A stretch of DNA of 62,915 nt, filler included, from Collodictyon triciliatum (Eukaryota), in the NCBI GenBank assembly GCA_043381765.1. It is 4 parts of 4 records of this genome, joined end to end, with 100 filler letters (N's around TTAATTAATTAA, not from the genome) between each part and the next. Parts side by side here need not be neighbours in the genome. Positions count along the whole stretch, not along the records: positions 1 to 23,957 come from JBHJMP010001217.1; 3 more parts are not named here. One strand, 5' to 3'. The translations under genes and the position numbers were made by a program. How positions within the stretch are numbered: the first letter of the stretch is position 1; the number at the start of each line of letters is the position of its first letter. Below, one piece after another: positions 2,063 through 59,028 of the stretch. The notes below the pieces were generated by a model. It had not been told where the DNA came from. It searched no databases and saw only the letters and a list, made by a program, of their open reading frames with translations.

Positions 2063-3235
2063 TTTTTTTTCATCCTTTCAATTTTGTGGAGGATGGTGGA
2101 GATATATTTGCCTTGGTTCGCTAGACATCGTTTGCATGGACGCTACTTGTTGGCCGGCAGAGAAGTAGTCGGTAATCAGCAATTGCATCCTGCGGTTTGG
2201 CCTGTAGCCCGAGTCTTGTGCTTTCATGAGAGATACAAGGCGAGGTTTAATGTCCTCCTCAGCTTCTTTCCACATGTCTCTTCTCACAATATCTGAGTAG
2301 TAGAGAACGTGCAGGTGGCGAAGAAAGCTATTGAGGAAAGAGATTTGTATGATGTCATTCAGCCTATTATCAGGAATGGGTGGCTGGTTCTGAGTCTTGC
2401 TTTGCGTGAGTATATGCGCGCTATCCACATAGTCCATAGCAAATGGCCTCGCGTCACTGCCCAGAATGTTTTTGCCTCTGGACGCAGCTGTTGAAGAGGC
2501 CCAAATATCGCCTGGATTGGGCCAACAGCCGCAGCCGTTTTGAGTGCCAGTCGAAGAGTCTCACCGGCTGTTTCGCGCAGGTTTTGAGCGAAGGGACATT
2601 GCACAAATGTGTGCTCAATGGATTCATCACCGTTGCTGCAAAGTGTGCATTGTTGGGAGACTTTGCCAGCTTTTGCCGCGCGTGTGCCTATCCATAGCTC
2701 CCTATTGGTGATATTAAGCATTAGAGAGTGGTGATTTGGAAGGACTTGCGGGGTACGTGCTTGTCTCCAGCTCGCGGTGAGTGGGATGTGGGTGATGCCC
2801 AGTGTTTCTCCCCACCGTTGATGGTTTGACTTTTTGTAGGGTGTCGGCGGTGATTTTTTGTATCGAAAGAATTTGGAGTAGGCCATAGCCATCGAGAACA
2901 GCATAGACTGCGCACCGTTAGACGAGCGTTCGTTCTTGAGGCGGAAAAAAAAAAAGGCGACGGGATGTCGTATGAGAATGGTCTGCGTGAGCGCCACTTT
3001 CCTTTGTTATTCAGGACGGCTGTGGTTCGCTATGCATCTTGTGTGTGGAATGCAGTGGAGCCTGGCGTTGTAATGTATGAGCCGTCTTCTGTGAATGAGA
3101 TTTCTCTGATGGTGGCCGCGTTGCCTTCGTGAACCTGTTTGATGATGCAGAAGCCTTTCTGGTTGTCCCAGCATATTTGTCCTGCTGCTGATGGCTCGTT
3201 CAGGGGTATTGTCATTTTGCAGTGATTAAACAGAA
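2063..3235 (-). mobile_element. 5'-truncated, frameshifted non-LTR retrotransposon (L1/Tx1-like) 3' fragment with zf-RVT zinc finger
   Basis: ORF 2359-2997 has CTLCSNGDESIEHTFVQCPFA (CxxC...ExxxH...C) followed by LWTMWIAR, typical of the LINE ORF2 C-terminus. It continues by frameshift into ORF 2078-2437, with a stop at 2078 and an A-run at 2063-2070. Confidence 0.8.
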
Positions 3236-3240
3236 TTACG

Positions 3241-3460
3241 CATTTGAGATGTGCAGGAAAATCCTGAGAAAGAGATTCAACCTCGCCTTGTCTCTCTCAC
3301 GCAAGCACAAGACCCAGGCCACAGGCCAAACCGCAGGATGCAATAACTGATTACTGACTACTTCTCCGCCGCCCGGCCGCCAAGTAGCAACCATGCAAGC
3401 GAAAGTCAGCGAGCCAAATCCAAAACCTCCGCCACCTTTCGCAAATTGATTAAAAAAAAA
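3241..3460 (+). mobile_element. Second, diverged 3'-end copy of the same LINE family in opposite orientation, with poly(A)
   Basis: 3245-3450 is the reverse-complement homolog of ~2075-2280 (e.g. ggccaaaccgcaggatgcaa is shared) and ends TGA-TT-A9. Confidence 0.8.
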
Positions 3461-3463
3461 TTG

Positions 3464-3630
3464 AGATGCTGGCAAGGCATGCAGCACTAAATACCTTTAT
3501 TACAAGAAGGAATATACCAATCTTTTGATTGGTAAACTTGGTCAGCTAGTATCCAAGGTCTCACCACTTTTTTCACTATGGTCGTGCAGTGGCGAAGGCT
3601 GCCAGATGAGACCCGATAGCCTGTTTTTTA
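3464..3630 (-). ncRNA. Putative Fanzor omegaRNA scaffold
   Basis: Lies directly downstream of the Fanzor stop and is packed with stems: TGCTG/CAGCA (3467/3482), TACCAATC-tttt-GATTGGTA (3515-3534), CTTGG/CCAAG (3537/3553), and GGTCTCA/TGAGACC (3557/3607) enclosing CCACT/AGTGG. Confidence 0.6.
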
Positions 3631-5686
3631 GAGGAAAGTGTATGCATATTTTGAAGAATTAAAGGAACTTTCTTGTATGATATTTAAAGGCTTGTTAAAT
3701 TCCCATGTCAAGAATACAGTTTGTTTGCTTTCTGAGCGATTGCATTCTTTTCATACGAGACATATATATACTCTTTTTTTGAATCTCCTTTCAGTTTCAT
3801 ATAACCCAGTTCTTTTTCGCAGTTGCATCATATCTTGGAGGCTTTTAATTCATTCACGCTAATTGTTTCAAAAAGTTTGGATAGTATTTTTCGTAATCCT
3901 TTTCCGATTTTTGGCATAAAATGGTTCATCTGAGATTTTCTGCACCAGTCTCCATACGCCAGTACAACATCCTTGCCAAATGTCTTTTCGATTCGGTCCA
4001 TAAACAATTGTTTACTTTTTTTTATTAACATACTGTCTCCATCCCATCTTTCGAAAAGTTACTTGCTTCGTAAAATCTGAATAATTCTATCTGGTATCTT
4101 GATTTCATAGATACATATTTTGAAATTGTTCATAATCGACCGTGCATGAATTATATTTACTCAGTTTTGTCTCTAGATCGATTAAAGATACTTTTGATGT
4201 CTCAAACTGCTGATTCTCTTCAAAAGTCCTGGAACCAAAAGAAACAGCACTTTGTAAATCTGTTGCCACGGATACCTCTGAAGAATTGTACTTTTCTTTT
4301 CTCGTGCATGAGTATTTTTTGATTTTTAAGAGATTTGCTATCATGTCTTCTTTGGCGTGTCGTGGAAAGTAATTTCTTACCTGCCTCATCCACCATGTAA
4401 ACCAAATTAAACTTGCCTGCGTCCACTCCAACTGTTTTTTTTTTCCGCTAATAAAATCTTTCCATCTATTCGATTCAAAGTGCAGCGAGGTTTTTTTCGC
4501 TAATAAATATAACTACTCTTCGGAAAGCTCATCTATATATACATTTTCTTGGGTTTTTTTTCCTTAATTCGAATTTTCTTGGGTTTTTTGATTATATTTG
4601 AATTTTGAATTTGAATCACCTTTCTTTTCAAATAATAATGACACCACCAAGCCGTCTGTTTGTATCATGTATTTAATATTGTAGTCTGTTTGATGGAAGA
4701 CCCTCTTCTTCATTTCAAAGAACTTATCCAATAGTTTATCTTTGTATCCTGATATATTCTTTAGTAATGTTGTTTTTCTAGTTGAATCTAATATATCTCA
4801 AACATGCAGTAGCTAGAGTAATATGATATGGTATATTGTTAGTTCTTATAGAGATTGGTTGAAACTGTTTGGTTCAAATGTCCTCAAAAATGCGATTCAT
4901 GTAAATCAGACATAGAATGTACTTATTTGGATTGACTTTGGCGCCATATTCGATACCATTTACAATACCGCTGAGAATGTATGATTCAAATGCGTTATAG
5001 TCCATCCTTTGTATTGTTCCTATATGTCGAGTTTCTTGAAGATGGCTTTTTTTAACTTTCGTAACTCTGTCTTTTTAATAGCTTCCGTCATATTCTCATT
5101 CTAGGAACTGTTTGATTTATAAAGCACAATAACCTCTTTACAAAATGTTCTTTAATGTTATTATGATAAGCTGTTAACATTTGCTTCGCCAAGTACGGTA
5201 ATACATGAGACAATCCAACCAACGGAAAGCGTTCTTCTCGGGACAAAAAGGAATCGAAAATGATTGAGATAAAAGTTGTCATGTCTTTTCTCATATCTAG
5301 TTTTTTTTTTTTTTTTATTTTTTTGGTTTATCTTTTTAAAATAATCATATTTTTTTTAAAATTTTTAAAANNNNNNNNNNTTATCTTGCTGGTCTATCTT
5401 GTGAAACTACCCAGACTGTCTTTAAAGCGTACAAAAAAAAAAAAAATAAATCATCGATTGTTGGGTGTTGTTGTGATTTCAATATGTAACATCGTGCAAA
5501 CAGATAAGTGTCGGTAACCAAATTATGACATAATAAAACTGTATCGTTGAATTTGTAATAGTCATCCAGATTCTTTACAATCGATTTTGGAGATGTTTTC
5601 ACATTTCGATAGTCTGGTTTTACAGACTTTAGATTCTCAAACTCAAGACGATTTCTTTTCTTTATCTGAAAGTCTTTGTTTTACAT
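3628..5686 (-). pseudogene. Fanzor1 RNA-guided endonuclease (TnpB/Cas12-related), disrupted by stops and frameshifts
   Basis: Fragments occur in the expected order: N-terminal KTSPKSIV...NDTVLLCHNLVTDTYLFARCYIL; YLAKQMLTAYHNNIKEHFVKRL; RuvC-I VGVDAGKFNLVYMVD; FGKDVVLAYGDW; GKGLRKIL; RuvC-II VNELKASK; zinc finger CNC...CLV*KEC; degenerate RuvC-III FLTWEFNKPLNI (cf. RDxNxAxNI). Confidence 0.88.
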
Positions 5687-5711
5687 TTTCCTTTAGAAAA
5701 CTATAGAGTTT

Positions 5712-5719
5712 TCAATTTT
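5712..5719 (-). promoter_or_regulatory. AAAATTGA motif (Mimiviridae early-promoter consensus) upstream of the Fanzor ATG
   Basis: Exact AAAATTGA on the minus strand about 26 nt upstream of the ATG at 5686, with two further AAATTGAC variants at ~5740 and ~5776. Could be chance in AT-rich DNA. Confidence 0.3.
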
Positions 5720-6539
5720 AATAAAACTTTAGTCAAACAGTCAATTTCATAAAATAAAATAAAAAACTGCATTAAGTCAATTTAGGTAAAATTAAGCATC
5801 TACCGAGACTCTCAAAATATGTGCATTGTGGCAAACAAACACACAAAGTTTTTTTATAAGTGATTTGGAACAAACCACTGAGAGCCGATTCGGCGAGTTC
5901 GAAAGGACGGCCGTATAGTCATTGAGACTGAAAGTCAATATATCGGCTCCAAACAACATGATTACCGCTGCAAGTGTGGATAGTATGCTTTTTTGAAATG
6001 CATGTTTGGTGGCAGGTTTATAGGGTGGGCTCTGTCTGGGCAAACGCAAGGGCTTCTTTGTAATTTTTGAATTTTAATGCCAATACAAAAATGAAAAATT
6101 AAATATAAATAGATTATAGGAATAGAATGATTATTAAGTATTTTTAACCTTAGTATATATGTATATACTAATCATATTATTCTAATATTCAGGTTCTTTC
6201 TTGGGTTCACCAAAGCTCCTGCTTTCGTCAATCTAGATTTAATTCGATGATTGTCTGTGTAATAAATTGCTATATGTATGGGTACACTTTCGTTGTATAA
6301 AAAGTGCTGTGCCTTGGAAGCGATAAAACCAAGTTTGTCACAACCTTTGCGATGAAGTTTATCCATTCACAGGCTAAATGATATCGAAAAAAAAAAGGAA
6401 AGGAAAGGAAAGGAAATAGGAAAAAGAAAAAAGAAAAAGAGAAAAATTGAAAAGGATGAATGAATAAGGACAATAATACTGACCGCTATATTCATACTTA
6501 TCTTGCTGCCGGGAGTCGATGGCTAGAACCCGATCCGTC

Positions 6540-6541
<2 letters not shown>

Positions 6542-6591
<50 letters not shown>

Positions 6592-6601
6592 NNNNNNNNN
6601 N

Positions 6602-6642
<41 letters not shown>
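6542..6642. repeat. (TTA)n microsatellite with internal gap
   Basis: Direct observation. Confidence 0.95.
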
Positions 6643-6644
<2 letters not shown>

Positions 6645-8239
6645 GATTCAAAGAGCTCGCTGCGTCTTATTAGTAGTTTGTTGTACTCACGGGTCGCTGG
6701 TAGCTGGCGTCCTGATCGTCGGTGAGTCTCTCTGCATAACTTGTGTTGTAAAGGGATGTGGTCAAGTGACCTTTTCGCTCTCTGCATCGGCTGCGTCGGC
6801 CTTCCTTATTTTGCGTTCAGTCAGTAGGCATTCCACAGGGCAGGGCTGTGGCACCGGTCTCCTGGTTGGCAGACTTGTCCTTCCCAGGATTTCCTTTCCG
6901 ATCGCTTGCGTGTTCTTTTGTTTTTTTCCGGCTTTAGAATGTGGCGAATTAGAAGAAGGAAAGAACCCCAGTGTAATAATATTATTTTCTGGAGAGTGCG
7001 TCCTTTGTCTCTGCCAGTGTGATGATTGTTTCTCAGCAAAAGAGACTTTTTCTTATTTATTATGTTATATTTTTATTGTTCCTCTCAACTGTCTCTCAGT
7101 GCGATCGCCACATTCTTATGCATTGTTAGGAATAGAATAGATCAATCATTGAGATTTTTTTCCAACAAACAGACAAAGCTTGAAAGTTTCTGTGCATTGA
7201 TTCGCGTTTATTGCAGGGTCGTATATTTATCTTAAATAACTCAGGTAAGTATACTGTATCATTTTGGATGTGTGTAATGAAGTATGCAGGTCTATGAAGG
7301 TTATATCTATGAGAATACTATATTTTCCGCTAATAGACTAAGATTGTGGCCGAGCGGTCAATTTTCCATCGAGTATCTTTTTGAATGTGACAGATGTCAA
7401 GGGCTGGGAAAATCTCCAGTTCCCAAGCCCAAAACAGAAAATCTCAACACAGCGCCTGGGCGTTTATATGGTGCACCACATCTGACATGAAATTCATATA
7501 AATATTCCATAAATAGGCATTTATTCGCACATTACTTCAGATTTCAGAAATCCGGATTAATCATTTAGTGTAATTGGGTGTTATAAATCCGGATTCCAAA
7601 AGCCCTACTTCCAAACTAGGCCTGCACATCAATTCAAACCGTTACAACGGACATTTCTATGAATGTTCCTGGGCCATGAGAAGACTTTGTGAGGGATACG
7701 CGGTAATTTTTGTCCAGATTCTGCCCGCCCGAAAGGAAAAGAGAATAGCAAACGAGTTTTGTTCATCACTCTCCCTCTCTTTCAGCTAAATGTTTTTCAA
7801 TCTTTCCTCTCTCTCTCCCTTTTTTTTTTTTTCCATTGCCAAACCCCATTTTTCTCCCCAAGCAAAACATAAAACGCCAGAAGTATAAAGAGCAATACGC
7901 GTATTTAAAGCCAAGTGCGCGGCGCCCTGCGTGGCCTGAAGCCAAGGCCGAGAACCACCAAGGGGCCAGGCAATCAGGACAGAGGAGACGACAGAAGAGC
8001 GGACCGCGAAAAGCAGGGAGCAGATGAAAGAGACTGACCCGAGGGATGGGGTGGCTGGACAGGAGATGACGTGAGGGAGGGGATGAGACGGGAGGGGATG
8101 AGACGGGAGGGGCAAGACAGAGTCCGCCATCCACCCAGGGGAGGGAGACCGACTCACCCGCGCTCTGTTTACCGTAGCCTTTGTCTCCACCCTTGTCCGC
8201 CAACGTCTGCCGTTCTCTGCTCTGCTTATCTGCCGATCG

Positions 8240-34496: not shown

Positions 34497-36167
34497 CTAC
34501 TCGAGGCGGAGGTGCAGGTCAAGCAAAGAGCTGAGCCCCGCATGCATACCCAGCGAACTGAAGATGGTCATGGCCAATGTGAGCGCAAACGTCTCTCTGA
34601 GTTCCGCGTAAGACACGTCCAAGGGCATTTTATAGACATATATCTCCACGTAAAAGGACAACAGGTCACTGACAAACTCAAAGAGAACCTGGACCCCAAC
34701 CAAGTAGACACAATCAGAGAAGTTTGCTGGAGTAAATACCACGGAAGCGGGAAACACGGGATGAATCAAGTACAACATGACCGCAACAACAATCGATACG
34801 CGGATTTCAGAGGCCACATTGTCGATGATTTGCTTCATCCTCATCGCTCGAAAGGTTGTCGGCAGGGCGTAGGGAACGCGCTCATCATCGTTATCGTAGA
34901 CATAATTCCCGTACTCGTCTCGATGAATCTCATGCTCTGCATCTGGGTTGGCGGGAGCTGTGCCAGAAACCACCACGATAGTCTGATGATTCTTTTTCAA
35001 TCTCGATGCCGTGGACGAAGTCATTGTGGATTCAGGGGAGATAATCTGCCCAGATGGCTGCGATTGTGGCCGGTTTGCTTGGGTGCCTTCGACTGCACGG
35101 CCATGGTCTCTATTTTCATCGTATGCGCGCTCTTCCGAACCAGATATACATATCCTGAAAGGCAAGACACATCTTCTGCTGCAGAAACAAAGCCTCTTTG
35201 GGAATCTCCAGTGCTGCCACCAAAGCCAAGCGTCTGCAAGCAGGTGGAAGCGGATGTTGTAGGTAACGCGGTTGAGAAAGTCGAGGCAGGCAACTGCGAA
35301 GCACATCCAAAAGAAATGGTGGTCCATCACGTCTCGCTGGCATAGACATAACAGCATTCTTCCCGTGTAGCGCATATGCGCGTTGACAAGCGAGACAACT
35401 TCCATGCGGCGGGTCATGTGCAGCGGCGGGAGGCTGATTAACGAGACCAGCTGATAAAAGTCGGCCACGAAAAAAATCCCGGTCACCACAATGAGCCGAA
35501 CTGCAAGCTGGAAAAGAAACGAGCCTTGGATGTATCGTGGATTCAGCATGTGCGATAGAATCACAGCTATGATGGAGAAGACTACACCTTGTCCAATCGC
35601 CCGAAGTGTCCCGTCAATCAAGAGAGGATGGATTAGAACAGAGCCAGGCTCAGAATCGCTCTGGTTCGGATGAATGTCTTGGTTCTGTTCCAGTCCCAGT
35701 TGTTGCTGGCTTTGAATCCGAGCCCAGGCAGCACGGGCCTTCTTTGAGACGTAAATCAGGACAAACATGTAGCATAGCATCAGAAAGCGCTGCAGCCAGC
35801 GGCAGAGACGAATGGGGAGTCCAAAAGGAAAGGACAGCGTCACAATTGCAGCGTATATCGGGACATAATAGCGAAGTGCGATGCGCCGCGCATTTTGGTG
35901 GCCAATCAGATGGCGGATGGTCAGAATCGCGACAGCAAAGAAGGCCGAATGGAACAAAGCCGATTCTGTGTGGATGTAAAGCAGATTCAGAATCGGCCGC
36001 ATTGTGTCCTTGGGCAGCCAGCGGAGAAGGCCGAAGTAGAGTCCCAACGGCACAAGTGCAAGGCCGGCCACCAAGGAGCTGTGAACAAATAGCACAGACC
36101 ATAAGGACAGCAGATGCGCTCCGCTTTCAGAGAAGAGCGATATTTCAAGCTGGGCCAAGGGCGGCAT
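34497..36167 (-). CDS. Intronless multi-pass membrane protein, unknown family, paralog 1 (556 aa)
   Basis: Long ORF with roughly 9-11 hydrophobic segments and a polar loop. Shares ISLFSESGAHLLSLWSVL, NIRFHLL, LYLIHP and VGVQVLFEFVSD...YVEIY motifs with its neighbours. Confidence 0.85.
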   Translation of the reverse strand: MPPLAQLEISLFSESGAHLLSLWSVLFVHSSLVAGLALVPLGLYFGLLRWLPKDTMRPILNLLYIHTESALFHSAFFAVAILTIRHLIGHQNARRIALRYYVPIYAAIVTLSFPFGLPIRLCRWLQRFLMLCYMFVLIYVSKKARAAWARIQSQQQLGLEQNQDIHPNQSDSEPGSVLIHPLLIDGTLRAIGQGVVFSIIAVILSHMLNPRYIQGSFLFQLAVRLIVVTGIFFVADFYQLVSLISLPPLHMTRRMEVVSLVNAHMRYTGRMLLCLCQRDVMDHHFFWMCFAVACLDFLNRVTYNIRFHLLADAWLWWQHWRFPKRLCFCSRRCVLPFRICISGSEERAYDENRDHGRAVEGTQANRPQSQPSGQIISPESTMTSSTASRLKKNHQTIVVVSGTAPANPDAEHEIHRDEYGNYVYDNDDERVPYALPTTFRAMRMKQIIDNVASEIRVSIVVAVMLYLIHPVFPASVVFTPANFSDCVYLVGVQVLFEFVSDLLSFYVEIYVYKMPLDVSYAELRETFALTLAMTIFSSLGMHAGLSSLLDLHLRLE

Positions 36168-36213
36168 GTCCTTGGCTGGTGCGTCCTGTATTCCGCTGGT
36201 GAGGCTTTGCTAG

Positions 36214-36214
36214 T

Positions 36215-36257
<43 letters not shown>

Positions 36258-36940
36258 TTTGTTTGTTTGTTTGTTTGTTTGTTTGTTTGTTTGTTTGTTT
36301 GTTTGTTTGTTTGTTTGTTTGTTTGTTTGTTTGTTTGTTTGTTTGTTTGTTTGTTNNNNNNNNNNNNNNNNNNNNNNNNNNNNNNNNNNNNNNNNNNNNN
36401 NNNNNNNNNNNNNNNNNNNNNNNNNNNNNNNNNNNNNNNNNNNNNNNNNNNNNNNNNNNNNNNNNNNNNNNNNNNNNNNNNNNNNNNNNNNNNNNNNNNN
36501 NNNNNNNNNNNNNNNNNNNNNNNNNNNNNNNNNNNNNNNNNNNNNNNNNNNNNNNNNNNNNNNNNNNNNNNNNNNNNNNNNNNNNNNNNNNNNNNNNNNN
36601 NNNNNNNNNNNNNNNNNNNNNNNNNNNNNNNNNNNNNNNNNNNNNNNNNNNNNNNNNNNNNNNNNNNNNNNNNNNNNNNNNNNNNNNNNNNNNNNNNNNN
36701 NNNNNNNNNNNNNNNNNNNNNNNNNNNNNNNNNNNNNNNNNNNNNNNNNNNNNNNNNNNNNNNNNNNNNNNNNNNNNNNNNNNNNNNNNNNNNNNNNNNN
36801 NNNNNNNNNNNNNNNNNNNNNNNNNNNNNNATAAGACAAAAGACAAAAGACAAAAGACAAAAGACAAAAGACAAAAGACAAAAGACAAAAGACAAAAGAC
36901 AAAAGACAAAAGACAAAAGACAAAAGACAAAAGACAAAAG
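36214..36940. repeat. (TTTA)n/(TTTG)n and (AAGACAA)n microsatellites flanking an assembly gap
   Basis: Direct observation. Confidence 0.92.
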
Positions 36941-37056
36941 AGCGTGGCGGAGAGATGGTTTAATGAGATTTCGTTGGTTTATACAGCATAATATGATGCA
37001 AAGGCATATCAATTTCCGGTTTTTATTAATCGCTTTTTTCATATTATACGTGAAAA

Positions 37057-38706
37057 TTAGATAGAGTATTGGTAGTTGACAAGGTAAGTAAAAAGAGTCA
37101 ATGTGATGGACATGCTTAAGGCGGACATGGCAATCGCAACGGGTGCGAATCTTTGCAATTCATCGTAGGATACGTCCAACGGGAACTTGAAGCAATAGAT
37201 TTCGACATATAGAGAGGTATAGTCAGTAACAAACTCAAATAGAATTTGAATCCCTATTTGGACAAACACTTCGTAGATGTCAGCACTGGTCTTGAAATCG
37301 ATACTACAAAACAGTGGGTGAATGTAGTACAGCAAAAAACTGACCAAAATAATAACTCTCGTATTGATGGACATGTCTTCTAATATAAGCTTCATTCTCA
37401 TTTTCTTCAATATGGGTGGTAATGAGTACAGTTCCTCATCGTTATATTCTACATGTCGTTCTTGGTCTCTTGTGCTACCATGAGGTGCTTCCAAATCATT
37501 ACATGCCGCGCAATTTGGAATGATGCTGTTTGCTTCCTCGGAATCTTTTTCATATTCATCAGATATATCACGAACCCTTGTCGATGACGAGTCTACTGGG
37601 CGAACGCTCACAGGGCTGATATTTGCTTTCTTTCCTTTCTTGAAAGAGGTTGAGTTCTCACTAATACTTGGTTCCTTATCTTCACCGTAGGATGTTCGGT
37701 TCCCCCTTCGATGGAAAAGGCGGTCTGTGCATCTACGCAAGCAAGGCGACATGAATTGCCCAGCTGTCTTCACATTTGAAAATATTTTTGACAATAAATG
37801 ATATCTTATATTGAACGTAGTTCTGCAAAATATATCCACCATCGAAAGCCCAGTACACATGATTATTAGATTTCTTTCATAATTTGCATCATTTACTGTG
37901 GCAACCATAAGTCGTGCAACGAAGCGACCATGTCCGTTAATGACAGAAGTCACCTCGAGGCACCGATACGCAAATTCAGAAGGTAGTGTATTAAGTATAG
38001 TAACTTGTATAGTCTCCATAATTAAAAAACCACAAGTCATGATACAAAGTCGAATGCATAGCTGGTCTTTGAAATCCCCGTGAATGTAAAAAGGATAAAT
38101 AAACATAGCTGAGTAGAATCCCATGCAAGTTAAAAACATTATCTGCATGACGGCAACGGCTGCATCTCTCAAGCAAAGTCCCTCGAGAGGATTGGTCTCA
38201 ACTTGGCCTTCCTCTTTCTCTTTTCTCTTGATTTCCCACAGTATATATGGAATGGAAATGAAATAACAAAGATCAAGAACAATTTGATAGACCAGTTTTG
38301 CCTGGTGCGTTAAACCCCATGCCAGAGAAAGAAAGCAGCTGGCTAAAAAGATCGGGATGATTATTCGCACGATGGCACGCCAGGCATAGCGTTTTCCAAA
38401 CATACGACTCAGGATCAGAAAAGCCACCGCACAATAAAGTCCTTGGGTGATAACATTCCCAATATCCGTGTATATTAAAAGCCCATAATCGTGCAAAACT
38501 GACTGAGGAAGCCAGCGTAGAAGGCCGAAATACAGGCCGAACGGTACAATCGCCACCAGAGACGTCACAGAACCATGAACTACAAGCACCGACCAAAGCG
38601 AGAGGATATTGGCTCCGCTTTCTGACCAAAGAGAGATGTGCAGTGGGTGCTCCGTCAAGCGGTCGTGTCTGGTGTCTGTGACGCGCTGAATCCACTGTAT
38701 ATCCAT
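37057..38706 (-). CDS. Intronless multi-pass membrane protein, paralog 2 (549 aa)
   Basis: ISLWSESGANILSLWSVLVV, FGLLRWLP, NIRYHLL, FLLYYIHPLF and GIQILFEFVTD...YVEIY; colinear with paralogs 1 and 3. Confidence 0.88.
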   Translation of the reverse strand: MDIQWIQRVTDTRHDRLTEHPLHISLWSESGANILSLWSVLVVHGSVTSLVAIVPFGLYFGLLRWLPQSVLHDYGLLIYTDIGNVITQGLYCAVAFLILSRMFGKRYAWRAIVRIIIPIFLASCFLSLAWGLTHQAKLVYQIVLDLCYFISIPYILWEIKRKEKEEGQVETNPLEGLCLRDAAVAVMQIMFLTCMGFYSAMFIYPFYIHGDFKDQLCIRLCIMTCGFLIMETIQVTILNTLPSEFAYRCLEVTSVINGHGRFVARLMVATVNDANYERNLIIMCTGLSMVDIFCRTTFNIRYHLLSKIFSNVKTAGQFMSPCLRRCTDRLFHRRGNRTSYGEDKEPSISENSTSFKKGKKANISPVSVRPVDSSSTRVRDISDEYEKDSEEANSIIPNCAACNDLEAPHGSTRDQERHVEYNDEELYSLPPILKKMRMKLILEDMSINTRVIILVSFLLYYIHPLFCSIDFKTSADIYEVFVQIGIQILFEFVTDYTSLYVEIYCFKFPLDVSYDELQRFAPVAIAMSALSMSITLTLFTYLVNYQYSI

Positions 38707-39183
38707 TGTGCCTATCCTATTATCTGGGAGGTTGCTTTTCCAAAGGCAGTTGTGTGACAGCTCTTGATGCCGCTACGCTGCCGTAAGATAGCTTTTTGTT
38801 AGGATGTAGTGTGGGGGCGAGTCTTGTCAGGCCGTCGCAAAAGACATGAAAAGGAAGAAAAAAAAAAGAAAAGGTCGAGGCAGAAATGACATACAGATGC
38901 AAGTTTCGCGCTGATGCAACTTCTGTGCTGAAATGGCTTTGAGCTGTACGATTAATAATGAAGCGGAAAGAACCAAAAAAGCAGGGGAAAACATAGGCAT
39001 CCGAGTAAACATGCCATTATAGGAATTTTCTAGTTGGTCTGCATTTCTGTCTCATACTTCAATAGTAAAGTGGTCATTAGAGCGAAAAGTTCTAATTTTG
39101 GATATTAAATGTGGAAAATAAAAATAAAAGACACGTGCTGATTAGTTTATGAGGCATTTAGTGAAATCCTTCGTCGTGGTTAT

Positions 39184-40813
39184 TTAGTGGGTTTTGGTAA
39201 AAGTGAAGTCTACAAAGGAGGAAAAGATGTTGAGTGCAACCAGAGTACTGAAGGCAGATAGCGTTGAGGTTATCAGAAAGTTTTTTCGAAGGTCATCATA
39301 GCATATGTCCATGTTCATGTTGTACCAGTATATTTCAGCGTACAAGCAAACCATATCCGCAGTGAACTCGAGAAGGACTTGAATCCCAACTTGGTAGAAA
39401 ACTTGATATAAATCCGAGTTTGTGTGGAACAAAGGGCTTTTGAAGAGCGGGTGAATAAAATAGAGAAGAAACGAGACCAGTATCGTGACCCGTATATCAG
39501 TGGATATATCATCTAGAATTTGTTTTATCCTTACTTCTTTGAGAGGTGAAGGCAAATCATAAGCACCACCTTCACCACCAGAGAATTTAATCTGGGGTGC
39601 TTGCGCAACCAAAGTATCGTAATCACCATCTTTTACTTCGATGGTATGATTTGGTTCTGGTAGAGTAAAATCAGTTGGTGGTCCTTCTAGGTTTTCTTCT
39701 CGACTAATATCCACTCGATTTGATACTGGGCTAACCTGAATAAGTTTTATCCTTTTTTGAGAGCGAGACTGAAAGTTTCTACTGGCTACACCAGCGTCAG
39801 AGTATGACCTGTTGGTGCGTACATTGCACAAGCCTGTCTGGATTATCTCTGCAAGATGTCGATTGTTAAATGGACATGGCCGTGTGAACCACCGAAGAAA
39901 ATGCAATAGTAAATGATATCGGATATTATATGTCATGCGAATCATGACTTCGACCAAAGAATTCCCCATGCACATCCAGAGCCAATATTTATCGTATGAT
40001 TCCATATTTACTGTGCAAATCATAATTCTGCCGATGAATTGAGCGTGTCCATTCACAGCCGAAACGACATCCATGCACAATAAGGCATGACTCAATGGAA
40101 GTCTTATCAGCACGTACATTTGATAGGCCTCAATTATAAAAAATATGATATTTACAAGAACCAGACGAATAAAGAGCTGTTTCTCTATACTCGCCCTGAT
40201 ATACTCGTCATAAATCCATAATGTTGTATAAAATCCAACCAAGCACATAACAACTCCTTTGCAAACAGAAAGCAGAGTTGATTTTTACCAGCAAAGGGTT
40301 TTGACGTTGAGAATGAGACATCACACTCACGTGTCTATTCCGATTATAAATGTAAATCAATGGGATACCATATCCTATCATCAGAACCCTTTGGATTATC
40401 AATCTTATTTCCTTCGAAAGACCCAACGGAATAGAGAATGCAATTATGGCCAAGTAAACTGGTAAATAGACTCGAATCAACACACCATGAAGCTCATCTC
40501 CATTAAATAACTTGTTTGCCATCATCCACGCAGCTGCGCAAAACAGTGTGTGTATGATGATGTTATTCAAATCGATGTACAAAAAGTCTACCCAAACATC
40601 CAGGACACTATGTGGCAACCAATGCAGAAACCCAAAATATATGGACAATGGAATAATGACGCCTACAGACACAAAGAACCCATTCACCACCAGCACGGAC
40701 CACAGTGAGATGATATTTGCGCCACTTTCTGACCAGAGGGGAATCTGAAGGCGATAATCCACTTGGTATATGTTATTTGAATAGGCCACCCGGCTGAAAA
40801 GATGGTCGTCCAT
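39184..40813 (-). pseudogene. Multi-pass membrane protein paralog 3, split by a single +1 frameshift near 40258 (pseudogene or sequencing error)
   Basis: ORFs 40208-40813 and 39184-40248 together align over the full length of paralog 2. One extra A in ...TTG CAA A GGA GTT GTT ATG... shifts the frame. Confidence 0.8.
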
Positions 40814-40883
40814 ATCTTCCTACGTATTAGTTTACATAAATTCAGGCAACAAATATAATATACAAATCAATGAAAATGAATGG

Positions 40884-41439: not shown

Positions 41440-43542
41440 TCACCGCCGCGTGTGGCTGGGCAGGTCGTGAAAATTAATCTCTATTTCTTCAAACTCCGAG
41501 CCCTCCGAGTCGCCCTCTTGTGCAATGAGACCCTGCCGCTGCTCTGTATCTGGTGAATCAGGTTTCTCTCCGTGCCTTTTTGTCAATCGATTGACAATCG
41601 ACTGAACACCTCTTCCGGGCGAGTCTTGTCCTCTTTCTTCCGACAACTCTTTCATTTCGATGGAATAAGGGCTCGCTTGTCGCATGCTGTCTCTCATTTT
41701 CCTGTATCGCATTACCTGGGTTCGAGTGTTTTTCTTTTTTTATTTTCCTTTTAAAAAAAGTGTGCTGTAAAGTTATACAATCTTTTTTTTTTTTTCATAC
41801 ATTCATATTTTAAAAGCTCAATGAGTTCGCTGAGACGAGAGTAAAAAATCGAGTAAAAATAAACAAAACACTCATTCAATCACTTCAAATATTGAAAAAT
41901 AACAAGAGCAGATACACCCAGAGTAAACTTCAATACCTTAGGGGAAATTTAGGCAAGGAAGGAAATCATCATGAAAGACCCATACCTTATAGCTTATTAT
42001 GCCTATCATACAAATAGAAAATCCTGTGGCGTTGAGGGCAGTGACTTCATCATGGAAAATAAGGACAGATATGATAATGGTTATCATCTCCTTTAAAGTT
42101 CCGACGATACTCATCGTTAGAGTTGATGTTCGATGAATCAGCAGAAATTCGAAAAGGTTAAGCCCAAAAGCCATCAAGAGCGCGGCGAGCATAAGTCCGA
42201 GAACTTGTATATTGTGATCAGAAATCTTTCGAGAGAATGCATTTCAGTAAGCATTATTTGATACTGTCTTGTTCAATAGGAAATCAAATGTAATTGTGCA
42301 TGTACTTCGTTGAAAGATTTCTTACGTGAAAAAATCCGGATTCCTTGATATGGGAAAATTCAAGGAGGAAAAATATGGGGATAAGACAGGACCCCTATGC
42401 GGACCACGCGACATCATAAAAATATTTATCGTTTAAGGAAAAGTCTCATTTAACTTCGGTAAATATAATATGATAGTATTAATAATAGTAACAATAATAG
42501 TAACAATAATAGTAACAATAATAGTAACAATAATAGTAACAATAATAGTAACAATAATAGTAACAATAATAGTAACAATAATAGTAACAATAATAGTAAA
42601 GATAAGTAAACGCAATATATGCTAAACACCTGAATTGGGGCCACAAAATACATAGTTGTTTTGGCGTCCAGCTGGAACTGCTCATGCTATATACATGACA
42701 GGTTTTCTTTTAAATTAGAATATTTTCTCAAAAAATCAATCGAACAAACGAACACATATAATCTTTGGACAAATATCAACATAATAAGGGAGATTGCAAG
42801 TGAGAACGGAGAAGTGAAAATATTTTTTTATTTTGATTTGTTGCTTACTTGCATAAGAAACTGACAGGAGGTCCATCTTGCACCAGCTAAAATCGATGCA
42901 ACAAATATCAAAAGAAATCCGAACGGGTCAAACTTTGTGTCTCCGTATGATGCCAGCAAAATCCCTGATGCGACCAACACAATCACCATGACGAGTTTTC
43001 TACTCGGTTTCTCCAGACCGAAAATGAAAGAAAACATCAAAACCCACACAACAACACCTATAAATAAATCGGGTAGAAAACGAGAAAAATTAGTCCGTAG
43101 TTACAACAGAATCAAGCAAAAACAGGCTGCCCTTCAATGAAGCGGCAACTGCTTCATAAAACTTACTAGCCTTAACCATCGTGTAAAGCGTCACCGTGAT
43201 GAAGAGCAGACTAAGGTTGGAAAGCGCAATGTCGAGCCCAGCAAAGATCCCCACGGGTACGACATAGCGCAAGTAGACGCCCCACGGGATGGCCTGGGCT
43301 GGCTGCACTCTGAAAAGCAGTCTCGATACCAACGCAATGCCAAACGAATGGAAGCAGGTTGTAAAGACAGGATAGTGGAAGCCGTATGTTGTAAAGAACC
43401 ATTTGTTGAAGATAGTCAGACCGATGCTGCACACGTACCAGCCGAAAGAATAGACTGTGGGGAAGAATATGCGCGAAAACATCGATCCCGCATTATGAGC
43501 GTGTGTGTTCTGACTGTCTTGGCCTTCTTTTCCATTCCTCAT
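41440..43542 (-). CDS. SLC35C2: Nucleotide-sugar/triose-phosphate transporter family protein, SLC35C2-like (multi-exon; start codon uncertain)
   Basis: WYVCSIGLTIFNKWFF...YPVFTTCFH; GLDIALSNLSLLFITVTLYTMVKAS; FSFIFGLEKPS; GARWTSCQFLMQ; EFLLIHRTSTLTMSIVGTLKE. Confidence 0.85.
42481..42598. repeat. 12-bp tandem repeat (AATAATAGTAAC)n, intronic
   Basis: About 10 perfect copies. Confidence 0.92.
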
Positions 43543-44730
43543 CGAATCTGCGGCTGGGTTCTGCGTCTGCAAAGGCTGTCGATCAAGGCTGGCGCGGATC
43601 TGATCACGGGTATGTGCGGGTTCAGAAGGGTGGGAGGCAAAGAGGGACGTTATGCGACCTTTGGGTGGCGGGTCAGTTTCTTTTCTTTTTTTCTTTTTGT
43701 TTTGGCCAGGAAGAACATAGGGCGCCGAATCGTAGAGGAGCAAGTGCAATGTCTTTGCGTCTGTTGCGGTTGGTTTGATCGCTACAGAATCTCATCTTTT
43801 GCTTGTGAAAGCGCAAGGATTCGTTTCTGATTGATTTCTTCGCATCAAGGATCATCTGTGGAACACCTTGCTGTGCACAATTCTGGAAAATATATAATTA
43901 TTCATATTTTTGATTTGTAGGGACTTGAATAGCGATATCACTTGGTATTTAATTAATTTTGTCTTAATGTTGATCACATGGTCAAAACACCTACCTTGGG
44001 GTCTGCTGCAGCCACGTAATCTGGATGCATCGTGATTCGCAAGGGTTTATTTATGTACACGCATGTCACATTAATGATGAATTCGGATGGCGGCATTGCT
44101 TCATTTCTTTCGCATCTGTAGCGATTCGTTTCCCGGCAGATAGCGAGTGCAACCTGGCTCCATATCTCAAGTGACTCAGAAGTCGCCATCAAATTTGGAG
44201 AGACCAGAGGCCAAGGTTTTAACGATTGGTTGGGCTGAAAGGTTTGAAGACCCTTTATGACAATGGCCTGCTTTTTTGATTTCATCATAGATTTCTCAAA
44301 CAGTGTCATAGCCAGCATAAGAAATAGAGGACTTTGAGTTGCGATTTTTTTTTTTTTTGTGCAAGGTTATTGATCAGAAGCCAATTAAACATGCTGAATC
44401 TGTCCTGTTCTTCCAACAAAGTGCTTTGCTTAAAACCTTGACTACAAGGATTAAAACATCGCCGTAAGGCGAAAAGACAAACAAGCCCGTATCTTTTCCA
44501 CCCTCGGGTGATTACTCCATTTGTCGCATGGAAAGTTAAACGAACAAGCGCCTTTCAAAATACTGTCTCTGACAAAAAAGGATATACATTGTAATTATGC
44601 GATATAATCACTTAGACTAAATTCCACCGTTTCAGCGAAAAGTCACATTTGTTCTCGTTTTTTTTTTGGCAACACCGTCACTTTGACAAAAATAATGAAT
44701 TATTCAAATACTGGGTGCCGTGAATACAAT

Positions 44731-44834: not shown

Positions 44835-44934
44835 NNNNNNNNNNNNNNNNNNNNNNNNNNNNNNNNNNNNNNNNNNNNTTAATTAATTAANNNNNNNNNN
44901 NNNNNNNNNNNNNNNNNNNNNNNNNNNNNNNNNN
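44835..44934. other. Artificial contig-joining linker
   Basis: N44-TTAATTAATTAA-N44. Confidence 0.95.
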
Positions 44935-44998
44935 CCCTTTCCCTTTCCTTTTCCTTTTCGTTTTTTCTTTTTCCTTTTCCTTTTCTTTTTCTTTTTCC

Positions 44999-45031
<33 letters not shown>

Positions 45032-45121
45032 CCATTTCCTTTTCGTTTCCTTTTCTTTTTCTTCTTCCTTTTCCTTTTCCTTTTCGTTTCCTTTTCTTTT
45101 TCGTTTTCTTTTTCGTTTTCT

Positions 45122-45173
<52 letters not shown>

Positions 45174-45373
45174 TTCTTTTTCCTTTTCCTTTTCCTTTTT
45201 GTTTTCGTTTTCGTTTTCGTTTTCCCTTTCCCTTTCCCTTTCCTTTTCCTTTTCGTTTTTCTTTTCCTTTTCCTTTTCCTTTTCCTTTTCGTTTTCCTTT
45301 TCGTTTTCCTTTTCGTTTTCGTTTTTCTTTTCCTTTTCCTTTTTCTTTTTTACTTTTTCTTTTCGTTTTTCCT

Positions 45374-45407
<34 letters not shown>

Positions 45408-45430
45408 TGTTTTTTTCGTTTTCCTTTTCC

Positions 45431-45469
<39 letters not shown>

Positions 45470-45718
45470 CCCTTTTCCTTTTCCTTTTCCTTTTCCTTTC
45501 CCTTTCCTTTTCCTTTCCCTTTCCTTTTCCTTTTCCTTTTCCTTTTCCTTTTCCTTTTCCTTTTCCTTTTCCTTTTCCTTTTCCTTTTCCATTTCGTTTT
45601 CCTTTACCTTTACCTTTACCTTTACCTTTCCCTTTCCCTTTCCCTTTCCTTTTCCTTTTTTTCTTTTTTTCGTTTTCTTTTTCTTTTCGTTTTCGTTTTC
45701 GTTTTCTTTTTCGTTTCT

Positions 45719-45765
<47 letters not shown>

Positions 45766-45975
45766 CTTTTTTTTCCTTTTCTGTTTTTCCTTTTCCTTTT
45801 TCTTTTTCTTTTCGTTTTCGTTTTCGTTTTCTTTCCCTTTTCCTTTTCCTTTTCCTTTTCCTTTTTCTTTTCGTTTTCGTTTTCGTTTTCTTATATTTTT
45901 TCTTGTTCGTTTTCGTTTTCCTTTTTTTTCCTTTTCTGTTTTTCCTTTTCCTTTTTCTTTTACTTTTTCGTTTTT

Positions 45976-46006
<31 letters not shown>

Positions 46007-46080
46007 CTTTCTCTTTTTCTATTCCTCTTTCTTTCGTTTTCGTTTTCGTTTTTCGGTTTCGGTTTCGGTTTCGTTTTCTT
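44935..46080. repeat. 1.1-kb degenerate pyrimidine-rich hexamer satellite (CCTTTT/CGTTTT/CTTTTT)
   Basis: Mosaic of related hexamers; the ORFs here are low-complexity artefacts. Confidence 0.93.
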
Positions 46081-46199
46081 CATTTTTTTTGTGTTTGAAC
46101 TCAAATTCCAGGTTGCTTAACTGCACATTTTTCTTTTTAAAGATTGAAAAACTGCAGTGGATAAAAAGAAAACAAAAAAACATCTCAGAATGCACCAGG

Positions 46200-58950: not shown

Positions 58951-59028
<78 letters not shown>

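What the first reader, a model, noticed from the sequence alone, without database searches (positions are those of the whole stretch)
3464..5801. Fanzor1 RNA-guided nuclease element (decayed) in a protist nuclear genome
Seen in sequence: ordered fragments with RuvC-I (VGVDAG), GDW, the shifted RuvC-II Glu (VNELKASK), a zinc finger and an eroded RuvC-III, with no transposase in the 2.3-kb unit. Established knowledge: Fanzors are eukaryotic TnpB-derived OMEGA nucleases carried by transposons and giant viruses. Inference: this dead copy suggests a Fanzor family in this organism, possibly with intact members that would be new programmable nucleases.
Basis: partly seen in the sequence, partly recalled or inferred. 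Interest (0 to 1): 0.8.

Follow-up and report, generated by a model that had tools for sequence, protein, structure and literature searches.

The report
Dead Fanzor1 nuclease gene copy
This stretch is a badly broken, transposase-less copy of a Fanzor1 gene (a eukaryotic RNA-guided DNA cutter), a known kind of mobile-element relic whose intact relatives occur in environmental assemblies and giant viruses.

Summary
On the minus strand, 5665..3588 is a collinear, heavily decayed Fanzor1 coding remnant.

- **Match to intact relatives.** A frameshift-aware alignment to an intact 648-aa relative, P0003, gives 382 of 631 identical codons, with 14 frameshifts and 13 in-path stops. A profile of 48 intact relatives hits 9 collinear stop-to-stop pieces (E 1e-3 to 5e-23) and nothing else in the window.
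- **Family.** P0003 matches all three solved Fanzor1s (E 2e-28 to 4e-23). Its model superposes on SpuFz1 at TM 0.74-0.79.
- **State of the window copy.** It keeps the RuvC-I Asp, GDW and the shifted Glu. It has lost the start codon, two zinc-finger Cys (TGA stops) and the RuvC-III Arg-Asp.
- **Transposase and ends.** No transposase or significant terminal inverted repeat is present.
- **Lesions.** Six were checked, and identical short contigs in other public runs reproduce them. Diverged copies there lack several of the window's lesions.
- **3' end.** Only the 3'-terminal 240 nt fold unusually well, and only on the sense strand (z -3.4). This may be a relic guide-RNA scaffold.
- **Viral relatives.** 449 giant-virus stretches encode relatives. 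In 26 of the 80 kept loci an IS630/Tc1-type transposase match lies nearby.

Verdict: an ordinary new member of a known kind, of low to moderate interest.

The parts
3588..5665 (-). Fanzor1 pseudogene: coding remnant collinear with residues 1-642 of the intact 648-aa relative P0003
   Evidence: Frameshift-aware DP alignment gives 631 codons aligned, 382 identical (60.5%), 14 frameshifts and 13 in-path stops. tblastn E is 2e-48 to 4e-50. The profile HMM hits 9 collinear pieces.
5384..5665 (-). N-terminal part. The start codon is lost (Ile where P0003 has Met1), a basic KKRNR stretch stands where P0003 has MKKRKRQ (NLS-like, recalled interpretation), and the first helices follow.
   Evidence: Piece 5384-5680 matches HMM positions 6-78 at E 3.4e-12; alignment.
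5275..5383 (-). T-rich low-complexity stretch with a 10-N scaffold gap (5371-5380). It holds 7 of the 13 in-path stops. In other copies this stretch is replaced by 39 nt.
   Evidence: One X1 contig and one X2 contig skip 5275-5384; the X1 contig has 39 other letters in their place (tables 5 and 5c).
4567..5327 (-). REC/WED-equivalent region in four frame-shifted pieces, including the conserved LTAYHNNIKEHF motif
   Evidence: Piece 5088-5327 hits GtFz1 (9cer) at E 9.6e-5 and PpFz1 at E 0.33. HMM E values are 3.1e-16, 1.2e-5, 6e-6 and 1.6e-17.
4415..4432 (-). RuvC-I motif VGVDAG: the catalytic Asp is kept and the family-invariant Pro is replaced by Ala
   Evidence: D364 and P365 are invariant in 48 of 48 relatives. 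Pfam OrfB_IS605 scores E 0.0072 on this piece.
3945..3959 (-). AYGDW: the position of the canonical RuvC-II Glu of TnpB, occupied by Gly-Asp-Trp as in Fanzor1
   Evidence: G521 is invariant. Piece 3828-4058 hits PpFz1 (9cf0) at E 0.0097 and the HMM at E 5.4e-23.
3834..3857 (-). VNELKASK: the alternative (shifted) RuvC-II Glu, six residues before the first zinc-finger Cys position
   Evidence: E555 and S559 are invariant. The Ealt definition comes from passages of PMC10711439.
3742..3830 (-). Broken C4 zinc finger. TGA stops at 3830..3828 and 3753..3751 replace two Cys, and there is one frameshift near 3773.
   Evidence: C562, C565, C587 and C590 are invariant in 8 of 8 close relatives.
3676..3708 (-). 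Eroded RuvC-III: TWEFNKPLNII where relatives have (T)RDFNSANNI, so the catalytic Asp and the preceding Arg are both lost
   Evidence: R603, D604 and N610 are invariant in 48 of 48. The HMM scores only E 0.33 on this piece.
3460..3699 (-). 3'-terminal 240 nt (end of ORF plus downstream tail): candidate relic of the omega-RNA scaffold and right end (inferred)
   Evidence: It is the only one of 17 sliding 240-nt windows with a strong sense-strand folding excess: z -3.38 and z -3.10 with 1 of 200 shuffles as good. The antisense strand gives z -0.99 and the other sense windows range from -1.31 to +1.82. No covariation test was possible. Rfam gives no match.
5666..5801 (-). AT-rich upstream non-coding stretch (putative 5' end of the element); its limit is not defined
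   Evidence: Diverged copies in run X4 cover up to the 5652-5730 bin, and none cover 5731-5800 (table 2). No significant terminal inverted repeat was found.

Best explanation
Window 3588-5665 (minus strand), with short non-coding tails out to about 3464 and 5801, is a dead copy of a Fanzor1-only mobile element in a eukaryotic nuclear scaffold.

Its ancestor encoded a protein of about 648 aa of the Fanzor1 clade of the TnpB superfamily. In its intact relatives this protein is an omega-RNA-guided double-strand DNA endonuclease. The guide RNA scaffold is transcribed from the 3' end of the gene and the element's right end. The sequence just outside the element serves as guide, and cleavage needs a target-adjacent motif.

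The window copy cannot make this protein. It has lost the start codon, carries 14 frameshifts and at least 6 firmly placed in-frame stops, and has lost two zinc-finger cysteines and the RuvC-III Arg-Asp.

It carries no transposase, so any past movement depended on a transposase supplied in trans. In the closest viral relatives the neighbouring gene is an IS630/Tc1-mariner-type DDE_3 transposase, which is only a lead for the partner here.

Shown: homology, collinearity, the lesions, and the absence of a transposase. Inferred: RNA-guided nuclease activity of the ancestor, the omega-RNA relic at 3460-3699, and mobilisation in trans.
For: - Two window fragments hit solved Fanzor1 proteins directly: GtFz1 9cer at E 9.6e-5 and PpFz1 9cf0 at E 0.0097. 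Pfam OrfB_IS605 scores E 0.0072 on the VGVDAG piece.
- The intact relative P0003 (648 aa) was found with the 79-aa fragment. It aligns to 5665..3588 with 382 of 631 codons identical.
- P0003 matches GtFz1, PpFz1 and SpuFz1 at E 2.1e-28, 2.7e-24 and 3.7e-23, and no Fanzor2 or TnpB chain at E <= 1.
- The P0003 model (pLDDT 85.8, pTM 0.84) matches SpuFz1 at TMq 0.74 / TMt 0.79 and GtFz1 at 0.65 / 0.69. The best Fanzor2 gives TMq 0.20 and the best TnpB chain 0.20.
- The HMM of 48 relatives hits 9 collinear pieces at E 1.3e-3 to 5.4e-23 and nothing else among 1968 pieces.
- The family invariants D364, G521, E555, D604 and the four Cys are identified. In the window D, G and E are kept, while R603/D604 and 2 Cys are lost.
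- The lesions checked are real. 151-nt contigs with 0 differences in two DNA runs (X1, X2) cover the frameshifts at 4798, 4983 and 3663 and the stops at 4876, 5022 and 3753 (table 8).
- Other copies lack some lesions. Indels sit at or next to my frameshift sites 4066, 4119 (+T after 4117), 5102 (+C after 5099) and 3773, and substitutions sit in the stop codons at 5022/5021 and 4876 (tables 3 and 4). P0001 is 81% identical (110 of 136) and open across 2 stops and 3 frameshifts.
- No transposase is present: no other ORF lies in the unit, and tblastn with two DDE_3 transposases gives best E 6.3.
Against: - No other copy lies in the 62.9-kb window and the genome is not held. Copy number, ends, TSD and TAM in this organism are therefore unknown.
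- No significant terminal inverted repeat was found: 52 of 300 shuffles score as well as the best candidate, 3438-3460 with 5849-5870.
- The strict published DPG...Ealt regular expression is not met even by intact P0003, because the spacings are longer. Only 1 of 128 long relatives meets it. The looser Bao & Jurka pattern is met by P0003 but by only 59 of 128.
- The omega-RNA relic rests on a folding z-score of a single sequence, with no covariation and no Rfam model.
- The metagenome pieces cannot be assigned to the same organism.
Confidence: 0.9

Rival explanations
1. The stretch is a fragment of an endogenised giant-virus insertion. On this reading a viral Fanzor1 gene was left behind by a Nucleocytoviricota integration, rather than a copy of a cellular transposon family.
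For: The nearest ESM-Atlas clusters of P0003 are 92-100% viral, with Nucleocytoviricota the commonest phylum. In the viral contig collection 449 stretches encode relatives, and the best 80 are 38-47% identical over the full length.
Against: No viral gene lies next to it. The flanks are a zf-RVT retroelement remnant and host-type genes. The closest proteins (60-81% identical: P0001-P0004, P0006) are much closer than any viral locus (at most 47%). Run X4 holds 87 laid pieces, mostly 80-95% alike, which looks like a multi-copy repeat family.
Confidence: 0.06
2. The gene is intact in the organism and only looks broken, through assembly or sequencing errors such as homopolymer indels and the 10-N gap.
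For: Several frameshifts lie beside homopolymer runs (4023, 3773, 4449, 4552). The scaffold has a gap inside the element.
Against: Contigs from independent short-read runs match the window letter for letter across three frameshifts and three stops (table 8). In-frame stops of all three kinds lie inside well-aligned blocks, and conserved catalytic residues are substituted.
Confidence: 0.02
3. It is a live gene read by an unusual genetic code, programmed frameshifting or many short introns.
For: Two stops are TGA exactly at conserved Cys codons, which would read as Cys in the Euplotes code.
Against: TAA, TAG and TGA all occur in frame, and one TGA aligns to Asp. 14 frame changes lie inside continuous alignment without extra sequence. 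Neighbouring host ORFs of 570 aa are open in the standard code. TGY to TGA is a single substitution.
Confidence: 0.01
4. The protein gene is dead, but the 3' end (3460-3699) survives as a guide-RNA-only module. It would be transcribed and used by intact Fanzor1 proteins made elsewhere in the genome.
For: The folding excess is strand-specific and limited to the 3' end: z -3.38 against -1.31 to +1.82 for the other 16 windows. A freshwater metatranscriptome run holds a 198-nt contig with no other letters and one gap against 4969-5165, though that lies in the coding part and DNA carry-over is not excluded.
Against: There is no covariation, no RNA evidence over 3460-3699 (X3 depth is 0 there, table 2), no known intact partner in this genome, and no Rfam model.
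Confidence: 0.08

Closest known systems
Guillardia theta Fanzor1 (GtFz1; PDB 9cer/9ces/9cet)
   Same: It is the best solved match to both the window fragment (E 9.6e-5) and the intact relative P0003 (E 2.1e-28). It shares the domain order, the LTAY.NNI..HF motif, DPG, G(D/N)W, E..TS..C..C, and the fold (TMq 0.65).
   Different: Identity is only about 20% over the structural alignment. The window copy is a pseudogene. The omega RNA and TAM of this lineage are unknown; the GtFz1 TAM is 5'-TTAAN (passage of PMC10432273).
Spizellomyces punctatus Fanzor1 (SpuFz1; PDB 8gkh, 9ceu-9cez)
   Same: It is the best structural match of the P0003 model (TMq 0.74, TMt 0.79, E 4e-26), with sequence E 3.7e-23. 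The catalytic D/E/D of SpuFz1 (D383, E541, D606, passage) corresponds to the invariant D364/E555/D604 of this family.
   Different: Identity is 19-20%. It is a fungal element, and the window copy lacks the third catalytic residue and two zinc ligands.
[quoted passage not shown]
   Same: In two of the closest viral loci (L002, L005; 44-47% identical) the Fanzor1 gene lies next to a divergent 343-346-aa HTH + DDE_3 transposase. 26 of the 80 kept viral loci have such a match within the flanks.
   Different: The window element has no transposase remnant, no detectable TIR and no viral neighbours. It is at most 47% identical to any viral locus listed.
Fanzor1-only 'non-autonomous' families such as PUl-4 and the old CMe-1A family (Bao & Jurka 2013, passages)
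   Same: The unit encodes Fanzor1 only, and the copies are old and diverged while some relatives keep an intact ORF.
   Different: Those families have defined termini or TSDs and a named host. Here the ends, TSD and host are undefined.

Membership tests
Fanzor1 (as a pseudogene derived from a Fanzor1 gene) | Significant, collinear, full-length sequence similarity to experimentally characterised Fanzor1 proteins | tested here: met
   Window fragments hit GtFz1 at E 9.6e-5 and PpFz1 at E 0.0097. The window aligns to P0003 at 60.5% over 631 codons. P0003 hits GtFz1, PpFz1 and SpuFz1 at E 2e-28 to 4e-23.
Fanzor1 | RuvC-I Asp within a DPG motif (Fanzor fingerprint, PMC10711439 passages) | tested here: not met
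   The window has D-A-G: the Asp is kept and Pro is replaced by Ala. DPG is invariant in 48 of 48 intact relatives including P0003. This counts as one of the decay lesions of a dead copy.
Fanzor1 | Alternative RuvC-II Glu six residues upstream of the first CxxC, with the canonical Glu position not Glu (G-D/N-W) | tested here: met
   The window reads AYGDW and VNE-LKASKI-[TGA at the Cys position]-CNC. G521 and E555 are invariant.
Fanzor1 / TnpB superfamily | C4 zinc finger between RuvC-II and RuvC-III | tested here: not met
   Two of the four Cys codons are TGA stops (3830..3828 and 3753..3751) and there is a frameshift near 3773. The finger is intact in P0003 and in 8 of 8 close relatives.
Fanzor1 / TnpB superfamily | RuvC-III 'RD' catalytic Asp (the Bao & Jurka 2013 pattern ends in RD) | tested here: not met
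   The window has W-E at that position. R603 and D604 are invariant in 48 of 48 relatives. P0003 fits the whole pattern.
Fanzor1 | Fanzor1 three-dimensional architecture (REC/WED/RuvC/NUC as in SpuFz1) | tested here: met
   This was tested on the intact relative P0003, not on the window copy. The model has pLDDT 85.8 and matches SpuFz1 at TMq 0.74 / TMt 0.79, PpFz1 at 0.67-0.69 and GtFz1 at 0.65.
Fanzor1 | Omega RNA encoded at or after the 3' end of the gene, with the guide outside the element's right end | tested here: inconclusive
   A sense-strand folding excess is seen only at 3460-3699: z -3.38 and -3.10. There is no covariation data, no Rfam match and no RNA cover there.
Fanzor1-bearing DNA transposon (Tc1/mariner, Helitron, etc.) | Defined termini (TIRs or hairpins) and target-site duplication | tested here: inconclusive
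   The best inverted match of the two ends is 3438-3460 with 5849-5870. It scores 19, and 52 of 300 shuffles do as well. It is a single decayed copy and other copies' flanks could not be read.
Fanzor1 | Host is a eukaryote or a virus of eukaryotes | tested here: met
   The window holds a P-type Ca-ATPase gene split into separate collinear ORFs, a TPT transporter and a zf-RVT retroelement remnant, and the scaffold is rich in microsatellites. The taxon is not identified.
Fanzor2 / prokaryotic TnpB | Closer similarity to Fanzor2 or TnpB than to Fanzor1 | tested here: not met
   P0003 hits no Fanzor2 or TnpB chain at E <= 1 by sequence. Fold TMq is 0.20 for ApmFz2 (9b0l), 0.20 for ISFba1 TnpB (8iaz) and 0.19 for TnpB 8h1j.

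The most novel reading that the evidence does not exclude
The dead copy marks a still-living, undescribed Fanzor1 lineage of a freshwater eukaryote.

- Intact 648-aa members (P0003/P0006 type) have a full D-E-D triad, a C4 finger and a basic N-terminus.
- This lineage is much closer to the window copy (60-81% identical) than any of the 80 giant-virus loci listed (at most 47%).
- Its own guide-RNA scaffold may lie in the last 240 nt or so of the element.

Such members would be new compact programmable nucleases. The relic's 3' end might still supply a guide RNA to them.
Probability: 0.3. Interest if true: 0.4.

Novelty: new member of a known kind. Interest (0 to 1): 0.25.

Why it matters
By itself it matters little. 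A dead, transposase-less Fanzor1 copy is the usual fate of such elements, and Fanzor findings are already very common in this scan (1462 notes in at least 236 genomes).

Its modest value is as a pointer. Through it I reached intact 648-aa relatives and a large Fanzor1 clade: 3147 clusters at E <= 1e-3 and 449 giant-virus stretches. It also suggests where the guide-RNA scaffold of this lineage should be sought. If the host genome holds intact copies, they would be candidates for a compact eukaryotic genome editor. They would also be a case for studying how Fanzor-only elements persist.

Tried and rejected
1. **Own genome.** A search of the whole genome for other copies was not possible because no genome is held.
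2. **Other copies in the window.** blastn found none. It gave only poly-T matches and a 116-nt flank repeat.
3. **Read-through by reference.** I used stop-to-stop pieces and my own HMM instead.
4. **Word-indexed protein search.** The 76-aa GDW fragment found nothing. The 79-aa fragment found P0001-P0004.
5. **Contig collections with P0003.**
   - The viral collection gave no relative with P0003 alone.
   - The 48-row alignment was too diverse to search with.
   - The 8-row alignment A2 worked.
   - The metagenome collection gave one distant locus, L001 (21% identity), which I did not study further.
6. **Sequencing runs.** Only small shares were found (0.05-0.14 of 195 words). No run holds the whole stretch, and I draw no habitat or strain claim from shares alone. 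Parts without cover are not evidence of absence.
7. **Alternative genetic code (TGA = Cys).** Rejected, because all three stop codons occur in frame along with 14 frameshifts.
8. **Terminal inverted repeat.** The candidate 3438-3460 with 5849-5870 is not better than shuffles.
9. **Rfam.** No match at gathering score for the whole window, and none at E <= 1 for 3300-6000.
10. **Strict published regular expression.** DPG x(120,160) E x6 CxxC x(12,18) CxxC x(4,8) D fails on intact P0003 and on 127 of 128 long relatives. It is unsuitable as a Fanzor1 test.
11. **Earlier notes of this scan.** There are none on this genome, and none by sequence.
12. **Host taxon.** The Atlas gave only a weak lead for one host ORF: eukaryotic clusters with Oomycota the commonest, score 0.93, recognition below the usual level. 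I do not use it as a finding.
Full report
**What is in the sequence**

Stop-to-stop translation shows, in descending coordinates:
- an N-terminal piece (5680-5384);
- a piece with LTAYHNNIKEHF (5327-5091);
- further pieces at 5074-4877, 4873-4781 and 4797-4567;
- VGVDAG (4432..4415);
- AYGDW (3959..3945);
- VNELKASK (3857..3834);
- a Cys-rich stretch (3830-3742);
- TWEFNKPLNII (3708..3676).

The region is AT-rich (GC 0.31-0.32 for 4001-6000). It contains a 10-N scaffold gap at 5371-5380.

**Is it more than chance, and what is it**

Two separate fragments match solved Fanzor1 proteins on their own. Fragment 5088-5327 hits Guillardia theta Fanzor1 at E 9.6e-5 and Parasitella Fanzor1 at E 0.33. 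Fragment 3828-4058 hits Parasitella Fanzor1 at E 0.0097. The positions in the targets are collinear. The VGVDAG piece gives Pfam OrfB_IS605 at E 0.0072, below the curated cut-off. Three other fragments gave no Fanzor hit in the PDB.

A word-indexed search with the 79-aa fragment returned four proteins, among them P0003. This is an intact 648-aa protein from a 2610-bp contig. A second 648-aa member, P0006, sits in the same 90% cluster.

My frameshift-aware alignment places P0003 residues 1-642 on 5665..3588:
- 631 codons aligned, 382 identical (60.5%);
- 14 frameshifts and 13 in-path stops;
- 11 residues deleted and 55 codons inserted.

Seven of the stops lie in the T-rich junk around the N gap. 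The firmly placed ones are at 5022 (TAG), 4876 (TGA), 4594 (TAA), 4515 (TAG), 3830 (TGA) and 3753 (TGA).

An HMM of 48 intact relatives (alignment A1) was scored on all 1968 stop-to-stop pieces of the window. It hits nine collinear minus-strand pieces with E from 1.3e-3 to 5.4e-23. It also gives a weak hit on the RuvC-III piece (E 0.33). Everything outside the element has E >= 0.13.

**Family assignment**

P0003 hits GtFz1 (E 2.1e-28), PpFz1 (2.7e-24) and SpuFz1 (3.7e-23), and nothing else of the TnpB/Cas12 kind at E <= 1.

The AlphaFold model of P0003, built with A1, has mean pLDDT 85.8 and pTM 0.84. Its fold matches are:
- SpuFz1: TMq 0.74, TMt 0.79, E 4e-26;
- PpFz1: TMq 0.67-0.69;
- GtFz1: TMq 0.65;
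- Cas12 proteins, Fanzor2 (9b0l, TMq 0.20) and TnpB (8iaz 0.20, 8h1j 0.19) far behind.

The exhaustive profile-free search finds 3147 representative clusters at E <= 1e-3, 1703 at <= 1e-10 and 537 at <= 1e-30. This is a large family.

Invariant columns in A1 (48 of 48) include D364-P365 (RuvC-I DPG), G521 (GDW), E555 and S559 (E..TS), and R603-D604 and N610 (RuvC-III). The four zinc-finger Cys are invariant in the eight closest sequences.

According to passages of PMC10711439, DPG plus a Glu six residues before the first CxxC (Ealt) is the Fanzor fingerprint. According to passages of PMC3627910, the superfamily pattern is D...[TS][TS]xx[C4]...RD, with an extra conserved G and E in Fanzor1.

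P0003 fits the Bao & Jurka pattern, and fits the DPG...E-x6-CxxC pattern if the spacings are loosened. It does not fit the strict published regular expression, which only 1 of 128 long relatives meets.

**State of the window copy**

- Kept: the RuvC-I Asp, GDW, the alternative Glu, TS to AS, and N610.
- Lost: Met1 (now Ile), Pro of DPG (now Ala), E391 (now Asp), two of the four zinc ligands (TGA stops exactly at the Cys codons), and R603-D604 (now W-E).

With 14 frameshifts this cannot encode a nuclease.

The lesions checked are not artefacts of this assembly. Contigs from other public runs are identical to the window across several of them (table 8):
- X1, 4778-4928 and 4915-5065;
- X2, 3619-3769 and 3833-3983 (the latter covers none of the lesions).

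All have 0 differences over 151 nt. Together they cover the frameshifts at 4798, 4983 and 3663 and the stops at 4876, 5022 and 3753.

An unusual genetic code is excluded, because all three stop codons occur in frame.

**Other copies**

None occurs in the window and the genome is not held. In run X4, 87 pieces were laid: 2 at 99% or more, 16 at 95-99%, 43 at 90-95% and 26 below 90%. They cover roughly 3519-5730.

Some pieces carry indels at or beside my frameshift sites: one base left out at 4066, T added after 4117, C added after 5099, and T added after 3773. Some carry substitutions inside the stop codons at 5022/5021 and 4876 (tables 3 and 4). One X1 contig and one X2 contig skip the junk stretch 5275-5384; the X1 contig has 39 other letters in its place (tables 5 and 5c).

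P0001 is 81% identical (110 of 136) and open across two of the window's stops and three frameshifts.

Less decayed and intact relatives therefore exist in public data. They cannot be assigned to this organism.

**Element structure**

The unit has no second ORF. The best inverted match between the two ends is no better than 52 of 300 shuffles, so the termini are undefined.

At the 3' side the element abuts a repeat (3303-3417) whose inverted partner lies at 2223-2113, around a zf-RVT ORF.

The sense strand of the last 240 nt (3460-3699) folds markedly better than dinucleotide shuffles: z -3.10 with 1 of 200 shuffles as good, and z -3.38. The other 16 sliding windows of the element range from -1.31 to +1.82, and the antisense strand of the same stretch gives -0.99.

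[quoted passage not shown] I read it as a possible relic scaffold. This is an inference from one sequence, with no covariation and no Rfam model.

**Relatives in giant viruses and a lead for the partner transposase**

The Atlas places P0003 next to clusters carrying PF26935 (DUF8286) that are 92-100% viral, mostly Nucleocytoviricota.

With the 8-row alignment A2, 449 stretches of the viral contig collection encode relatives. The best 80 are 38-47% identical over nearly the full length.

In L002 and L005 the Fanzor1 gene is preceded by a divergent 343-346-aa HTH + DDE_3 transposase and flanked by viral genes (mRNA capping enzyme, ribonucleotide reductase small chain). 26 of the 80 loci have a match to these transposases within the 4-kb flanks. 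This is the Tc1/mariner-type arrangement described for PGv-1 and relatives (passages of PMC3627910).

The window has no trace of such a transposase (best tblastn E 6.3).

**Context and host**

The window carries a P-type Ca-ATPase gene split over separate collinear ORFs (57.4-61.6 kb, minus strand), a TPT-family ORF and a zf-RVT remnant, and long microsatellites. It is eukaryotic and nuclear in style. 'Protist' could not be tested.

**Verdict**

This is a dead, Fanzor1-only element copy, and a new member of a well-described kind.

Limits on the novelty claim:
- I saw only search listings and passages of the papers.
- The supplementary Fanzor catalogues were not visible and may already list this lineage.
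- Earlier notes of this scan show that Fanzor relics are common.

Noticed in passing
window 2113-2223 and 3303-3417: A 116-nt inverted repeat pair (83% identical) brackets a 215-aa open frame at 2359-3006 (minus) with a zf-RVT domain (E 2.3e-8). This is a retroelement remnant, and it directly abuts the 3' side of the Fanzor element.
   Followed up: partly
window 34497-36209, 37057-38772, 39184-40819 (minus): Three tandem paralogous ORFs encode a multi-pass membrane protein of about 570 aa with no Pfam family. The third is split into two frames. The Atlas gives only a weak lead to unnamed eukaryotic clusters, with Oomycota the commonest.
   Followed up: partly
window 57374-61625 (minus): A P-type Ca-ATPase gene lies in separate collinear ORFs (Cation_ATPase_N, E1-E2_ATPase, Cation_ATPase_C). 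This is consistent with spliceosomal introns.
   Followed up: partly
window 44879-46214: About 1.3 kb of purine/pyrimidine-skewed simple repeat is open in several frames (K/R/E/G-rich on one strand, F/S/L on the other). AT skew is -0.97 and it has paired 44-N gaps.
   Followed up: no
window 6530-6660 and 36214-36990: Further microsatellites interrupted by N gaps: an (AAT/ATT)-type run around 6592-6601, and a TTTA/TTTG-type run around the 475-N gap at 36356-36830.
   Followed up: no
L002 2641-3678 and L005 2648-3676 (minus), next to Fanzor1 at 4001-5902: In giant-virus contigs the closest viral Fanzor1 genes sit beside a divergent HTH + DDE_3 transposase. They lie between viral core genes: mRNA capping enzyme in L005 and ribonucleotide reductase small chain in L002. 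26 of 80 loci have such a transposase match within 4 kb.
   Followed up: partly
window 4969-5165: A freshwater metatranscriptome run (X3) holds a 198-nt contig with no substitutions against the dead copy. It differs only by one extra T after 5046. This may be read-through transcription or DNA carry-over.
   Followed up: no
window 43090-43791 (minus): An ORF has a weak Triose-phosphate Transporter family match (E 1.5e-6, just under the curated cut-off).
   Followed up: no
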